DNA from: an uncultured Bacilli bacterium
Lineage (GTDB): Bacteria; Bacillota_I; Bacilli_A; RF39; UBA660
NCBI GenBank assembly: GCA_934167885.1
Contig: CAKPMB010000002.1
Location: forward strand, 9,307-73,306
DNA: 64,000 nucleotides
Reading direction: 5' to 3'
Below, in pieces: positions 56,458 to 59,426 of this stretch. The position numbers were made by a program, and so were the translations under genes. The notes beneath the pieces were generated by a model. That model did not search any database, was not told the DNA's origin, and saw nothing but the letters and a program-made list of their open reading frames with translations. The first letter of the stretch is position 1, and every line of letters begins with the position of its first letter.

Positions 56458-59088
56458 CTATTCATCATTTCTTTTATTTTTTCTATCTTTAAACTTCTTA
56501 GAAATACCTGCAAAAACTCCAGCTATAGCAGTGCCAATAGCTCCAAAGATAAGACCTTTATTGGAAGAACTTTGCTTTGTATCTATATTATTAACATTAT
56601 TTATTGAAGATGAACCAGTTATATCACTTGGAATATTAATATCATTTTCAATATTTTTACCATCATCACTAACATTATTAGTATTATTTCGTTGAATAGC
56701 ATCATTTTTAGGTATAGTATCTTTAGCATTAGTTGGAATATCAAGATGGATATTTTCTGAATTATCATTGTTATTAAAAACATTACTCTTTTCGTTTGTT
56801 GGCTGATTAATAGTATCATCAATAATAATATTATCGTTATTAGTTGGTGGAGTATCAACACCACCTGGTTGTGATGGTTCTGAAGGTGCCGTTGGTGTTT
56901 TAGAAGGTGTTTGTTTAATAGTGGCATCATTAGCCTTTTGTTTCAAATCATTTTTGATGTCTTCGTATTGATTTTTTATCTCATTTAATTTGGTTTCATC
57001 TACTGTAATATTCGTCTCTTCACTATTTTTATTTTTATTTTTTTTTATAATGTTAATATTATCAGTAATTGTTTCAGATGAAGAACCATTGGGGGTTGTT
57101 GAAGGATCATGATGAATGTCTTCCGAATTATTATTCATACCGTTATTAAAATCATTTGCATTTAATGGATTTTCCACCTTTCCGTTTGTATCATCATTTA
57201 TCTCTTTTATAGTATTAATAGTATTAGCAGTTGTATTAGATTCATTTTTTGTGGGTGTGAACACAACGTCACCATCAAGTGGTGGTTCTACCGGTGGTTT
57301 TTCGTATCCTAATCCTTGCATAGTAGCATCAAGTCTTGACTTATCAGCTTCCCTTAAAGTTCCAAATTCACGAAGCCTTCTTTCATCTTCTTCTCTAAGT
57401 TCACCACTAGCATCCATTTCAAACTTAAATTTTGACATATAGTCTCTTTTGCGAACTGGTGTTGGTTCGTCTGCATCAAGCGTTTCTGAAGGTTTTTCAT
57501 CAGGTGTTTTTGTTTCATCTACAACATTTGGTTTATCACCAGTAGCTTCTTTTGGAACTTCCGTATCAGTTTCAGATGGTAAACTTGTATTATCTTTGGA
57601 ATCACCTAAAGTTTTATTTTGAACATAATTTTGAATATTAGCACCAATCTTTTCTTTATCAGCTTCGCTCATTGTTCCTAATACACCAATTGGACCATCA
57701 GCTCCCTCAAATACTACTGCATCATCTAATGTTTCACTATAATCTTTCAATTTTGCGTCCTTGTTAATTTCATCTTCACTAGATTCCACTCTATTTAAAT
57801 CATTACCAGAATCCATACTATCTTCATCATCATACTCAGGCATCTTAGAAGCAAGTTGAGCCGAAAATAATGAATTATAATCAGTAGTTTCAGTATTTCC
57901 ATTGACATCGTTCGTAGCGCAAAAAGCTCCGCAACCACTCAAACTTAAAAGTGAAAATAACTTAGGGGTTATTTCTTGATTATTTTTTAAACTAATTTTT
58001 AATACTGTGTCACTTACGCGTGATACTTCAAAATTTTCGTTAAATTTACTATAAGTGCGACTTTGTTTAGGATCAGAAAAAGCATAATAACCCCTATAAA
58101 TAGGCTTTTCTTTCTCACCATAAATAGTCCGTGGAAATGAATCAAGCAAATATACTGTGCCATGTTCTTTAAATTCGCCTACATTTAAAGTCATACTTAC
58201 ATAGTGACCACTATCAGTTGTCTTAAATGGACAACTCGAATTACTGCTTCCTGTTGCTAAAAAGCCAACGGTCAAAGTTGTATTAGGATTTTTACTATAA
58301 ATAGCATCAACTATATTAAAAAATCCCCCATAATTTTGTTCTTTTCCATCATACGATATCTTTGTCTCTAAATTAAATTTTCCTAAAAGCATCACTTTAT
58401 TGCCAGCGAGATCGGCTTGATTAATAGAATCAATTAATGACCTGTAATTTCCTTGGTCTGTATTATAAATGATTGTTCCATCAAAGGAGTCAATAAGACC
58501 ATTTAATGTCTCATATTTAGGATTACGTTTCGTAATACCTGCTAAATAGTTATTGATACAATTAGGAGCATTAAAACTACCATTTCCCCCACCATTTTTT
58601 GTCGCAAGGTCCAAAATTTCTTGATATAGATTAATTATAGTATCTTTATCTCTAATATCAAAGGCAATAATTAATTCATTTGTTATGGAAGATGGTCCAC
58701 ATGCCGATGCTGAAACTGTATTTTTACCATACATTAAATTATAGCTAGCCCATAATTCATCCGTTTGGGCAACAATAGCATATTTTGATATTAAAGTATC
58801 TAATAACAAATTAGTTGTTTCATTGCCAAGATCTGATACACCATTTGTTATTTCATTGACAAGATTTGTATATAAAGTTAAAGAATTATCAGCAAAGGTA
58901 ACTAAATCATCAGTATAACCTATAAGTTTCGTAATATCACTTATAGCATCACTTCCGCCTAAGTAATTACCATTATCAGTAACACCTTTAAGCTTAGTGT
59001 TAATTGTTGTTAATTTTTCACTTAATTCCAACGACTTTGAACGTATTTGCTCTGCTACACTTTCATTAAAATCTACCACGTTTTTCAT
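56458..59088 (-). CDS. large tail-anchored low-complexity protein with an LXG-like N-terminal domain (putative type VII secretion substrate / polymorphic toxin-like)
   Basis: N-terminus MKNVVDFNESVAEQIRSKSLELSEKLTTINTKLKGVTDNGNYLGGSD aligns by eye with B. subtilis YeeF-type LXG N-termini (MK.....KALKGVADL...G.G); central C...H pair (SASACGPSS...DSGHYV); long D/N/T/P/E-rich region; C-terminal TM helix GLIFGAIGTAIAGVFAGI plus basic tail. Confidence 0.45.
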   Translation of the reverse strand: MKNVVDFNESVAEQIRSKSLELSEKLTTINTKLKGVTDNGNYLGGSDAISDITKLIGYTDDLVTFADNSLTLYTNLVNEITNGVSDLGNETTNLLLDTLISKYAIVAQTDELWASYNLMYGKNTVSASACGPSSITNELIIAFDIRDKDTIINLYQEILDLATKNGGGNGSFNAPNCINNYLAGITKRNPKYETLNGLIDSFDGTIIYNTDQGNYRSLIDSINQADLAGNKVMLLGKFNLETKISYDGKEQNYGGFFNIVDAIYSKNPNTTLTVGFLATGSSNSSCPFKTTDSGHYVSMTLNVGEFKEHGTVYLLDSFPRTIYGEKEKPIYRGYYAFSDPKQSRTYSKFNENFEVSRVSDTVLKISLKNNQEITPKLFSLLSLSGCGAFCATNDVNGNTETTDYNSLFSAQLASKMPEYDDEDSMDSGNDLNRVESSEDEINKDAKLKDYSETLDDAVVFEGADGPIGVLGTMSEADKEKIGANIQNYVQNKTLGDSKDNTSLPSETDTEVPKEATGDKPNVVDETKTPDEKPSETLDADEPTPVRKRDYMSKFKFEMDASGELREEDERRLREFGTLREADKSRLDATMQGLGYEKPPVEPPLDGDVVFTPTKNESNTTANTINTIKEINDDTNGKVENPLNANDFNNGMNNNSEDIHHDPSTTPNGSSSETITDNINIIKKNKNKNSEETNITVDETKLNEIKNQYEDIKNDLKQKANDATIKQTPSKTPTAPSEPSQPGGVDTPPTNNDNIIIDDTINQPTNEKSNVFNNNDNSENIHLDIPTNAKDTIPKNDAIQRNNTNNVSDDGKNIENDINIPSDITGSSSINNVNNIDTKQSSSNKGLIFGAIGTAIAGVFAGISKKFKDRKNKRNDE

Positions 59089-59426
59089 TAATACTCCATT
59101 TCTCTTGATTCAAGCATTGCATCTCTATTTTTAGCAGCAACCATCGAACTTTGTTTCATAGCATTTATTGAATTTTTATATTTTTCTATTTGAGCATTAA
59201 TCTTGGTAATAACATTTTCCATACCAATAACGTAGCTTCCCTCGTTATTAAAATTTTCCTTCAACAATTTATCAATATCATCCAATTCTACCTTATATTC
59301 ATTTAATAAACTACACGTATCATCAAGTTCACGATTAAACGATTCAGCCTTAGCCTGATACTTACGCACTTTAAATGTTGTTTTCTTACCAGTGCCATCT
59401 GCATTATTAATATCTTTAACACTCAT
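59088..59426 (-). CDS. small alpha-helical protein, translationally coupled to the LXG-like gene (Lap/WXG100-like partner candidate)
   Basis: 112 aa from the Met with a GGTAGGTGA RBS (the ORF could begin 16 codons earlier); predicted helical, coiled-coil-like; its stop overlaps the downstream start (TAATG). Confidence 0.4.
   Translation of the reverse strand: MSVKDINNADGTGKKTTFKVRKYQAKAESFNRELDDTCSLLNEYKVELDDIDKLLKENFNNEGSYVIGMENVITKINAQIEKYKNSINAMKQSSMVAAKNRDAMLESREMEY

What the first reader, a model, noticed from the sequence alone, without database searches (positions are those of the whole stretch)
56458..59426. LXG-like N-domain on an 876-aa tail-anchored, low-complexity protein with a coupled small helical partner gene
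The N-terminal ~60 residues (MKNVVDFNESVAEQIRSKSLELSEKLTTINTKLKGVTDNGNYLGGSD) align by eye with the start of Bacillus LXG toxins (YeeF: [42 protein letters not shown]..GKG). The upstream 112-aa helical protein overlaps its start (TAATG), as Lap/WXG100-like export partners of LXG proteins do. Where LXG proteins usually carry a C-terminal toxin domain, this protein instead has a putative Cys/His pair (SASACGPSS / DSGHYV), about 450 aa of D/N/T/P/E-rich disorder, and a C-terminal TM helix with a basic tail, i.e. a tail-anchor. No T7SS core genes (EssC/EsaA/EssB) and no obvious immunity gene are present in the window. The gene sits inside the accessory region next to the integrase remnant.
Basis: partly seen in the sequence, partly recalled or inferred. 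Interest (0 to 1): 0.6.

Follow-up and report, generated by a model that had tools for sequence, protein, structure and literature searches.

The report
Signal-less surface protease with helper gene
A conserved two-gene unit in an uncultured gut Firmicute encodes a new kind of papain-like protease whose usual export signal is replaced by a helical hairpin plus a small helper protein, probably an ESX/type VII-style export tag, though it is not a true LXG toxin.

Summary
The sequence features are real: an 876-aa ORF (56458-59088, minus), a 112-aa ORF overlapping it by TAATG, no signal peptide, a Cys/His pair, a 440-aa acidic low-complexity stretch, and one C-terminal TM helix with a basic tail.

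The LXG label fails. No Pfam or NCBIfam model matches. The N-domain is a two-helix hairpin of about 100 aa, not a 220-aa nine-helix LXG domain. There is one partner gene, not two.

In one relative the pair sits directly behind a bona fide WXG100 gene. The partner has a YxG-like turn and an invariant C-terminal Asp (AKxxDD), resembling Lap3's NKxxDD export arm.

Best reading (about 0.5): an ESX-like bipartite export tag replaces the signal peptide, yielding a membrane-tethered surface protease. Export and topology are untested.

The pair is core genome. The accessory island is a 6.2-kb insertion beside it.

The parts
59088..59426 (-). Partner gene: 112-aa small protein with no Pfam match and presumed helical, translationally coupled to the large gene. 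Family-invariant residues are K26, A27, N31, D35 and D102. Nearly invariant (>=90%): L59, L65, G68 and A98.
   Evidence: ORF and RBS. Only weak sub-threshold matches to helical-bundle families (HBL, MakE, TelA). 13-member family alignment. A homologous gene lies upstream of every full hairpin form. dN/dS 0.05.
59223..59237 (-). Presumed turn of the partner (S64-G68, SYVIG). The family consensus is S-L-Y-x-G-I, a YxG motif at the position where WXG100 proteins carry WxG.
   Evidence: Alignments A4/A7. The analogy to WxG is an inference. The partner was not modelled.
59118..59135 (-). C-terminal motif of the partner, A98-K-N-R-D102-A. The family consensus is E-A-K-K-x-D-D, and D102 is invariant. 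It resembles the NKxxDD export-arm motif of Lap3.
   Evidence: Motif and its role in Lap3: PMC10801868. The resemblance is by inspection, not a statistical test.
59086..59090 (-). TAATG stop/start overlap between the partner gene and the large gene, with GGAG 6 nt upstream of the ATG.
58774..59088 (-). N-terminal helical hairpin of the large protein (aa 1-105; helices 9-40 and 45-102). It occupies the position where most family members have a Sec signal peptide.
58954..58968 (-). Hairpin turn, N41-Y42-L43-G44-G45. Y42 is invariant in the hairpin forms. L43-G44-G45 reads as L-x-G in this protein but is not conserved across the family.
   Evidence: Leu41 of the TelA LxG motif lies in the equivalent turn (PMC10801868).
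57889..58773 (-). Papain-like (clan CA) cysteine peptidase domain of a previously undescribed family (aa 106-400). Its candidate catalytic residues are Q108 (58765-58767), C130 (58699-58701), H295 (58204-58206) and D316 (58141-58143).
56560..57888 (-). Acidic low-complexity stalk (aa 401-843; N13 D12 T9 E9 S8 K8 P6 %, net charge -44). Its length varies between strains, giving proteins of 822-915 aa.
57244..57450 (-). Conserved island inside the stalk (aa 547-615, KRDYMSKF...DGDVVFTPTKN). It is nearly invariant among close relatives, and its function is unknown.
56500..56556 (-). Single C-terminal transmembrane helix (aa 845-863, GLIFGAIGTAIAGVFAGIS). A small residue (G/T) occurs at every fourth position, which looks like a glycine zipper.
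   Evidence: Hydropathy. Sequence.
56461..56499 (-). Basic C-terminal tail, KKFKDRKNKRNDE (7 K/R and 3 D/E in 13 aa). By the positive-inside rule it would stay in the cytoplasm.
56417..56441 (-). Terminator-like hairpin just downstream of the stop codon. It lies within the first bases of the strain-specific insertion.

Best explanation
The two genes form a conserved bicistronic module.

The cargo (shown). The large protein is a clan-CA, papain-like cysteine peptidase of a new family. Most members of that family are stand-alone enzymes of about 330 aa with a Sec signal peptide.

The tag (anatomy shown). In this sub-branch the signal peptide is replaced by a two-helix hairpin of about 100 aa. 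A gene for a protein of about 110-125 aa is always placed directly upstream, and here it is translationally coupled.

Proposed mechanism (inferred). The hairpin and the partner assemble into a four-helix bundle like EsxA/EsxB or PE/PPE. The invariant Tyr in the hairpin turn would play the role of the WxG/LxG residue. The partner's C-terminal AKxxDD motif, with its invariant Asp, would act as the export arm recognised by a type VII-family ATPase. The complex would then be exported without Sec.

Proposed outcome in the window protein (inferred). The peptidase ends up outside the membrane on a 440-aa acidic stalk long enough to cross the wall. It is held by the C-terminal TM helix, whose basic tail stays in the cytoplasm. 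Relatives carry other C-terminal modules, or none, and would be released or bound differently.

The substrate is unknown. It could be a wall peptide, a surface protein or a host protein.
For: 1. Anatomy of both genes is confirmed.
2. The fold is papain-like and Q/C/H/D are conserved.
3. 77 of 102 family representatives have a Sec-type signal peptide, and the hairpin forms have none. The domain therefore normally works outside the cytoplasm.
4. The partner gene sits directly upstream in nine divergent hairpin lineages, although the flanking genes differ: pyk, gyrase/topo IV-like genes, TrpRS/SMC, miaA.
5. The one lineage without a partner (P0012) has an N-region 45 aa shorter, so hairpin and partner are lost together.
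6. In L014 and L015 the pair follows a bona fide WXG100 gene (PF06013, E 7e-15, 55.5 bits) after a 124-nt gap.
7. L003 and L007 carry WXG100-like genes (E 0.002-0.013, with WQG/WEG motifs) and giant proteins without signal peptides within 7 kb of the pair.
8. The partner has a YxG turn and an invariant Asp in AKxxDD. These resemble the LxG/NKxxDD export arm and the 'universal C-terminal acidic residue' described in PMC10801868.
9. The hairpin superposes on EsxOP at 2.0 A over 81 residues.
10. The basic tail after the TM helix fits an N-out orientation.
11. Relatives have T/S/P-rich tails and surface Ig-like domains.
12. T7SS variants are reported in Clostridia (PMC11217815).
Against: - Neither the hairpin nor the partner shows detectable sequence homology to WXG100, LXG or any Lap family. 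Pfam gives nothing. PDB profile searches give nothing. hhalign probability is 2.5-3.7%.
- No T7SS core gene is present in the 64-kb window; the largest ORF is PFOR. None lies within 10 kb of any homologue examined.
- The genome could not be searched for an EssC-type ATPase.
- In P0007 the positive charges lie on the N-terminal side of the TM segment and a surface Ig-like domain follows it. That argues for the opposite, N-in topology in that relative.
- T7SS is not known to leave substrates anchored by a stop-transfer helix.
- The hairpin-partner complex was not modelled.
Confidence: 0.5

Rival explanations
1. The protein is a true tail-anchored, cytoplasm-facing enzyme and is not exported. The peptidase domain works on the inner face of the membrane, tethered by the acidic linker. 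The small protein is a stoichiometric regulator, inhibitor or chaperone that binds the hairpin, in the way SVBP binds vasohibin or a prodomain binds its protease.
For: - No signal peptide is present.
- There is no significant WXG100, LXG or Lap similarity.
- No T7SS machinery lies in the window or in any flank examined.
- The genomic context is always housekeeping: pyk/dnaE, gyrase, SMC, miaA.
- P0007's charge distribution and its post-TM Ig-like domain fit an N-in topology.
- Vasohibin-SVBP structures appear among the weak Foldseek hits (E 0.7-3).
Against: - 77 of 102 family representatives are Sec-secreted, so the domain's normal workplace is outside the cell.
- A 13-aa tail with 7 K/R would have to cross the membrane.
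- Long acidic or T/S/P-rich stalks and surface Ig-like modules are typical of extracellular proteins.
- WXG100 adjacency in L014/L015 would be coincidental.
- Most hairpin forms have no TM helix at all.
Confidence: 0.22
2. The protein is exported by some other Sec-independent route, such as a holin-like, lysis-dependent or dedicated ABC-type pathway. Alternatively, the hairpin and partner act mainly as a zymogen lock or assembly module rather than a secretion signal.
For: - The evidence that places the domain outside the cell does not identify the route.
- Homology to T7SS substrates is undetectable.
- Papain-like enzymes commonly carry inhibitory N-terminal helical prodomains (established knowledge).
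- In L004 a DUF87 (HerA/VirB4-like) ATPase gene lies directly downstream.
Against: - The signal-peptide forms have no prodomain.
- No transporter or holin gene is conserved next to the pair.
- The association with WXG100 and the export-arm-like motifs point specifically to type VII.
Confidence: 0.18
3. The protein is a bona fide LXG-type polymorphic toxin. The C-terminal glycine-zipper-like helix would be a membrane-depolarising toxin module like those of TelE or EsxX, and the peptidase would be a pre-toxin releasing peptidase.
For: - C-terminal regions differ between hairpin forms in a modular way.
- The TM helix has small residues at every fourth position.
- Glycine-zipper LXG toxins exist (abstracts of PMC12744356 and 10.64898/2026.03.12.711312).
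Against: - The LXG HMM and LXG domain architecture are not met.
- No downstream gene is conserved as an immunity candidate. The downstream genes seen are cadherin-like, DUF87, SMC or none.
- The gene is single-copy in the core genome, with a nearly invariant N-terminal 450 aa and dN/dS 0.09.
- A helix followed by a strongly basic tail at the very C-terminus looks like an anchor.
- The conserved part of the protein is the peptidase, not the tail.
Confidence: 0.07

Closest known systems
LXG toxins with Lap targeting factors (T7SSb; TelA-LapA3-LapA4, PMC10801868)
   Same: - There is no signal peptide.
- An N-terminal helical domain is encoded directly downstream of a small helical partner gene.
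- A hydrophobic residue lies in the first turn at about residue 41-43.
- The partner has a conserved C-terminal K-x-x-D-D-like motif with an essential-looking Asp.
- The C-terminal regions are variable.
   Different: - There is no match to PF04740, DUF5344, DUF5082, DUF3130 or DUF3958 for this protein or its partner.
- The domain has about 100 aa and 2 helices, against about 220 aa and 9 helices.
- There is one partner instead of two.
- No immunity gene is present.
- The conserved cargo is a peptidase that elsewhere uses Sec.
- The protein ends in a membrane anchor.
- It lies in the core genome.
WXG100 heterodimers (EsxA/EsxB) and PE/PPE pairs (T7SSa)
   Same: - Two adjacent, co-translated genes each contribute (in the model or presumably) a helix-turn-helix of about 100 aa.
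- The small partner carries the C-terminal acidic export motif, as PE and EsxB do.
- The larger protein carries the aromatic turn residue and a C-terminal extension, as PPE does.
- The hairpin superposes on EsxOP at 2.0 A over 81 aa.
   Different: - Tyr replaces Trp in the turn.
- There is no HMM or hhalign similarity.
- The organism is a Firmicute.
- The extension is a 770-aa enzyme, stalk and TM anchor.
C39 / C39-like peptidases and other clan-CA enzymes (PCAT1, ComA, 3erv, IdeS, SpeB, ATG4, PeiR)
   Same: - The core fold is papain-like.
- The residue order is Gln, Cys, His, Asp.
- The nucleophile lies in a 'GCGP(S/T)S' motif, as in Peptidase_C39_2.
   Different: - Pfam C39_2 appears in only 2 of 89 members, at E 0.24.
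- The domain is about 300 aa with extra helical inserts.
- It is not attached to an ABC transporter.
- The substrate is unknown.
EssH, the CHAP peptidoglycan hydrolase required for S. aureus T7SSb (PMC13059805)
   Same: It is a Cys/His hydrolase acting in the envelope and genetically tied to type VII secretion.
   Different: EssH has a Sec signal peptide, is not a T7 substrate, has a CHAP rather than a C39-like fold, and has no partner gene.
Sortase-anchored Gram-positive surface proteins
   Same: The layout matches: a functional head, a long charged or Pro/Thr-rich wall-spanning stalk, a hydrophobic helix and a basic tail.
   Different: There is no signal peptide and no LPXTG-type motif.

Membership tests
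LXG domain proteins (PF04740) | Significant match to the LXG profile | tested here: not met
hmmscan against Pfam at E<=10 gives 0 families for the full protein. The isolated N-domains of six homologues and the window protein give no LXG hit.
LXG domain proteins (PF04740) | N-terminal domain of about 200-220 aa with nine helices in two sub-domains (TelA structure, PMC10801868) | tested here: not met
   The AF2 model shows only two helices (9-40 and 45-102) before the peptidase domain begins at about residue 106.
LXG domain proteins (PF04740) | Conserved L-x-G in the first turn (Leu41 in TelA) | tested here: inconclusive
   The window protein has Y42-L43-G44-G45 in the turn. Across the hairpin forms only Y42 is invariant, position 43 is L or Y, and the Gly is not conserved.
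LXG domain proteins (PF04740) | Two upstream Lap targeting factors (Lap1+Lap2 or Lap3+Lap4) forming a 1:1:1 complex | tested here: not met
   Only one small gene is conserved upstream in all lineages. It matches no Lap Pfam family.
LXG domain proteins (PF04740) | C-terminal toxin domain with an adjacent immunity gene | tested here: not met
   No downstream gene is conserved among loci. The C-terminus here is a stalk plus a TM helix.
T7SS substrates in general | Export depends on an EssC/EccC-type ATPase encoded in the genome | not testable with these tools
   The window has no such gene. The species is absent from the genome collection. Contig flanks beyond 10 kb could not be fetched.
T7SS substrates in general | Genomic association with WXG100 genes | tested here: inconclusive
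   Met in L014/L015, where a true WXG100 (E 7e-15) lies directly upstream. Weakly met in L003 and L007. Not met in the window or in L001, L004, L010 or L016.
WXG100 (PF06013) | Profile match, and a helix-turn-helix of about 100 aa with WxG in the turn | tested here: not met
   Neither the partner nor the hairpin matches the profile. hhalign against local WXG100-like proteins gives probability 2.5-3.7%. The hairpin shape is present in the model. The turn motifs are YxG / Y[LY], not WxG.
Lap3 / DUF5344 (PF17279) | Profile match, and a C-terminal NKxxDD export-arm motif | tested here: inconclusive
   The partner family gives no DUF5344 hit. The only hit is a sub-threshold match of the P0009 hairpin at E 0.013. 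The partner has A-K-[KN]-x-D-[DA] with an invariant Asp, which resembles the motif by eye only.
Clan CA papain-like cysteine peptidases (C39-like) | Papain-like fold | tested here: met
   [not shown]
Clan CA papain-like cysteine peptidases (C39-like) | Conserved Gln (oxyanion hole), Cys, His and Asp/Asn in that order | tested here: met
   Across 88-89 sequences, H295 is invariant and Q108, C130 and D316 are conserved in at least 90%.
Clan CA papain-like cysteine peptidases (C39-like) | Match to an existing family model (e.g. PF13529 Peptidase_C39_2, PF03412) | tested here: not met
   There are no hits for the window protein. C39_2 appears in only 2 of 89 members, at E 0.24. The PDB profile search finds nothing.
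Clan CA papain-like cysteine peptidases (C39-like) | Proteolytic or amidase activity | not testable with these tools
   This needs an enzyme assay with C130A and H295A controls.
Tail-anchored membrane proteins | A single TM helix within about the last 30 residues and no signal peptide | tested here: met
   The TM helix spans 845-863 of 876 residues, and no other hydrophobic segment qualifies.
Tail-anchored membrane proteins | The N-terminal bulk is cytoplasmic (N-in) and a short tail is translocated | not testable with these tools
   The positive-inside rule argues against it, because the tail has 7 K/R. The Sec-secreted relatives also argue against it. P0007's charges argue for it.
Sortase (LPXTG) substrates | An N-terminal signal peptide and an LPXTG-type sorting motif before the helix | tested here: not met
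   Neither is present. A regex search for [LIVN]P.[TSAG][GNSAD] returns nothing.

The most novel reading that the evidence does not exclude
This is a natural swap of export signals within one enzyme family. A minimal ESX-like bipartite tag has replaced the Sec signal peptide on a housekeeping surface protease. The tag consists of a two-helix hairpin fused to the cargo plus a single Lap/EsxB-like partner that carries the acidic export arm. A type VII-family machine in uncultured gut Clostridia would then deliver a protein that stays anchored N-out by a C-terminal stop-transfer helix. Type VII secretion would in that case be used for biogenesis of the producer's own surface proteins, not only for toxins and small Esx proteins.
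Probability: 0.3. Interest if true: 0.75.

Novelty: new variant of a known kind. Interest (0 to 1): 0.55.

Why it matters
If the module is an export tag, it would be the smallest cargo-fused type VII targeting unit seen so far in Firmicutes: one hairpin plus one partner. It comes with a built-in natural control, because homologous peptidases carry either a Sec signal or the hairpin. That makes the question of what is minimally sufficient for T7 targeting directly testable. It would also raise the question of whether T7 systems can leave membrane-anchored products.

Independently of that, residues 106-400 define an uncharacterised clan-CA peptidase family of at least 100 clusters at 50% identity. 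These come from gut and rumen metagenomes and have no Pfam model, no solved structure and no annotation. Such a family is a candidate wall-remodelling or host-protein-cleaving enzyme of uncultured Firmicutes.

Tried and rejected
- Pfam, NCBIfam and PHROGs scans of both proteins gave nothing usable.
- A word-index homologue search with aa 1-421 returned zero hits, although the full-length query had found near-identical proteins. I treated this as a tool artefact.
- PDB sequence searches with the single sequence and with profiles of the peptidase, partner and hairpin returned only chance coiled-coil hits.
- hhalign of partner vs hairpin, and of each against local WXG100-like proteins, gave probabilities of 2.5-3.7%.
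- The genome-contig scan found only one distant relative (a Clostridiales MAG), so the organism could not be named and its genome could not be checked for essC.
- Both metagenome-contig scans were empty.
- The context of a signal-peptide form (L017-L019) was uninformative.
- Cluster look-up gave no names for any member.
- Rejected: phage or mobile-element origin. There is no PHROG hit, and the pair is syntenic in a genome lacking the island.
- Rejected: sortase substrate. There is no LPXTG motif and no signal peptide.
- Rejected: a mis-called start hiding a signal peptide. The ORF begins at the first start codon after a stop.

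
Full report
**1. What is in the sequence**

The minus strand carries an 876-aa ORF (56458..59088). Directly upstream is a 112-aa ORF (59088..59426, ATG preceded by AGGTGA). Its TAA stop overlaps the ATG of the large gene (TAATG), and GGAG lies upstream of that ATG. A pyk terminator precedes the pair and a terminator-like hairpin follows it.

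- The large protein has no N-terminal hydrophobic segment. It cannot be extended upstream, because the ORF starts at the first start codon after a stop.
- Residues 401-843 are N/D/T/E/S/K/P-rich with net charge -44.
- The only hydrophobic helix is residues 845-863, followed by KKFKDRKNKRNDE. There is no LPXTG-type motif.
- Both genes are under purifying selection against a 76%-identical relative. dN/dS is 0.09 for aa 1-420 and 0.05 for the partner.

**2. Genomic setting**

A 97%-identical genome fragment (L001, GCA_019420605.1) is colinear with the window. It has the same pair between pyk and a cadherin-like gene. The window carries an extra 6,242 bp (50203-56444) that starts 13 nt after the stop codon of the 876-aa gene. 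The insertion holds NUDIX, radical-SAM, APH-kinase and GT2 genes plus HTH and integrase remnants. A 76%-identical relative (L021) also has the insertion.

The gene pair is therefore core genome that borders the island; it is not part of it. The window contains no EssC-sized or FtsK-type gene. Its largest ORF is a pyruvate:ferredoxin oxidoreductase.

**3. The LXG claim**

- Pfam and NCBIfam give no hit for the large protein, even at E<=10.
- The isolated N-domains of the window protein and six homologues hit neither LXG nor WXG100.
- AlphaFold2, using an 89-sequence alignment (mean pLDDT 83, pTM 0.75), predicts two helices (9-40 and 45-102) and then an alpha/beta domain.

The solved LXG domain of TelA has about 220 residues and nine helices in two sub-domains. 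Each sub-domain binds one Lap protein (PMC10801868). The defining LXG features that could be tested are thus not met.

**4. The central domain**

An exhaustive phmmer search with aa 1-421 found 103 cluster representatives. Most are proteins of about 330 aa that match only residues 96-370.

- Across 88-89 sequences, H295 is invariant, and Q108, C130 (in GCGPSS) and D316 (in YLLDSxPR) are conserved in at least 90%.
- A domain-only model is confident (pLDDT 89.5, pTM 0.90).
- No Pfam model or PDB sequence matches. Peptidase_C39_2 appears in only 2 of 89 members, at E 0.24.
- No source gives any member a name.

This is a new family within a known clan.

**5. Signal peptide versus hairpin**

By a simple hydropathy criterion, 77 of 102 representatives begin with a classical Sec-type signal peptide. 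Most of the rest are fragments. The hairpin-bearing forms have none. These are the window cluster, P0007, P0008, P0009, P0013, P0015 and P0018, plus the 606-aa protein of L020 and an 879-aa protein in GCA_016648615. Their first 105 residues are mutually homologous, with invariant E9, L33, Y42, Y73 and V84. The hairpin thus occupies the place of the signal peptide on an enzyme that normally works outside the cytoplasm.

**6. The partner**

Every hairpin form has a gene of 109-125 aa directly upstream. The flanking genes differ between lineages: pyk/dnaE, gyrase/topo IV-like genes, TrpRS/SMC, miaA.

The partners are homologous at 15-31% identity. K26, A27, N31, D35 and D102 are invariant, and L59, L65, G68 and A98 are nearly so. 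This gives a central S-L-Y-x-G-I turn and a C-terminal E-A-K-K-x-D-D motif.

The single lineage without a partner gene (P0012, L016) has a pre-peptidase region of 62 instead of about 107 residues. Hairpin and partner are therefore lost together. The partner family matches no Pfam family above noise, and no PDB or PHROG family at all.

**7. Link to type VII secretion**

The link is instead contextual and by motif:

- In L014 and L015, from two independent samples, the gene order is 104-aa helical protein, 100-aa WXG100 (PF06013, E 7e-15, 55.5 bits against a 27.3-bit cut-off), partner, then the 435-aa hairpin-peptidase.
- In L003 and L007 the pair lies within 7 kb of ~100-aa proteins with WQG/WEG motifs and sub-threshold WXG100 hits (E 0.002-0.013). 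Giant proteins of 1229 and 1985 aa that lack signal peptides sit nearby. The 1985-aa protein carries a surface Ig-like domain.
- In L020 the neighbouring genes again encode helical N-domains without signal peptides, fused to shuffled C-terminal modules.
- For LXG toxins, Klein et al. showed that Leu41 in the first turn of TelA and an NKxxDD motif at the C-terminus of Lap3 form the export arm. They also argued that a C-terminal acidic residue is a universal T7 requirement (PMC10801868). Here the hairpin turn is N41-Y42-L43-G-G with Y42 invariant, and the partner ends in A-K-[KN]-x-D-[DA] with the Asp invariant.
- T7SS variants, each with a WXG100 protein and an ATPase, occur across Bacillota including Clostridia (PMC11217815).

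**8. Topology**

The basic tail after the helix (7 K/R against 2 before it) predicts that the tail stays inside and the bulk is outside. This agrees with the Sec-secreted relatives, and with the acidic or T/S/P-rich stalks and surface Ig-like domains of other hairpin forms.

Against this, P0007 has its positive charges on the N-terminal side of its TM segment and an Ig-like domain after it, which favours N-in for that protein. Most hairpin forms have no TM helix at all. Topology is therefore unresolved. 'Tail-anchored' describes the anatomy but not necessarily the orientation.

**9. Interpretation**

Most likely (about 0.5) the module is an ESX-like bipartite export tag: a fused hairpin plus one Lap/EsxB/PE-like partner carrying the acidic arm. 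It would replace the signal peptide of a clan-CA peptidase. In this species the product would be a wall-spanning, membrane-tethered surface enzyme.

Shown: the gene pair, its conservation, the co-loss of hairpin and partner, the fold, the catalytic residues, the alternation between signal peptide and hairpin, and the WXG100 adjacency in one lineage.

Inferred: complex formation, recognition by a T7 ATPase, orientation, and substrate.

Rivals:
- A cytoplasm-facing tail-anchored protease with a regulatory partner (0.22).
- Another Sec-independent route, or a zymogen-lock role for hairpin and partner (0.18).
- A genuine LXG-type membrane toxin (0.07). This last is weakened by the lack of a conserved immunity gene, the core-genome location and the invariant peptidase.

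**10. Novelty**

The protein is not a member of LXG, WXG100 or any Lap family by any test available. It may nevertheless work like them. I classify it as a new variant of a known kind, built on a new peptidase family.

Interest is moderate to good (0.55). The idea is testable, and the natural Sec/hairpin alternation is unusual. The key claim, export, rests on context and motif resemblance only.

Noticed in passing
window 50203-56444: A strain-variable 6.2-kb insertion sits between the 876-aa gene and the cadherin-like gene. It carries a NUDIX hydrolase, a radical-SAM enzyme, an APH-type kinase and a 669-aa GT2 glycosyltransferase, plus an HTH (transposase-like) fragment and a 97-aa integrase C-terminal remnant. 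It is absent from the 97%-identical L001 and present in L021.
   Followed up: partly
window 57244-57450 (aa 547-615 of the 876-aa protein): An island of about 70 residues (KRDYMSKFKFEMDASGELREEDERRLREFGTLREADK...DGDVVFTPTK) is almost invariant among close relatives. It lies inside an otherwise indel-rich low-complexity stalk. It has no family match and its function is unknown.
   Followed up: no
L020 2584-4404, 336-1283 and 1299-2123: One hairpin-bearing paralogue has lost the catalytic motifs (no GCGP Cys motif, and His replaced), so it looks like a pseudo-peptidase. It carries a second Cys/His domain with a weak Peptidase_C39_2 match (E 0.005). The two genes upstream of its partner gene encode helical N-domains without signal peptides, fused to the same C-terminal modules seen in P0009 and in P0008/P0018. 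This looks like modular shuffling.
   Followed up: partly
L003 373-6046; L007 2643-9534: These are clusters of ~100-aa helical proteins with WQG/WEG motifs and sub-threshold WXG100 hits. Each is followed by a giant protein of 1229 or 1985 aa without a signal peptide. The 1985-aa protein has a surface Ig-like domain (E 2e-19). They are candidate T7-type substrates in uncultured gut Firmicutes.
   Followed up: partly
L004 11926-13686: A 586-aa DUF87 (HerA/VirB4-like P-loop ATPase) gene lies directly downstream of the P0008 module. It is not conserved in other loci.
   Followed up: no
window 48841-50163: A 440-aa protein with a Cadherin-like beta-sandwich domain (E 2e-15) and weak WxL and DUF4064 hits. 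It is the syntenic downstream neighbour of the module in genomes lacking the island, and may be another surface protein.
   Followed up: no
window 24643-26184, 7937-9256 and 34017-34952: Three sizeable ORFs have no identified family. The 513-aa and 439-aa ORFs gave no Pfam match. The 439-aa protein has a TM segment and an N/S-rich stretch. The 311-aa ORF was not scanned against any family library.
   Followed up: no
window 316-1167, 1202-1531 and 3288-4058: By eye these look like a SpoIIP-like protein, a type IV pilin/ComGC-like prepilin (MNKKGFTLIELL...) and a sporulation-type sigma factor. That would make the host a spore-forming, low-GC (28%) Firmicute. None of the three was checked with family models.
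   Followed up: no
tool behaviour: The word-index homologue search with aa 1-421 returned no hits, although the full-length query had returned six proteins that are about 98% identical over that same region. Negative results from that tool should be read with care.
   Followed up: yes
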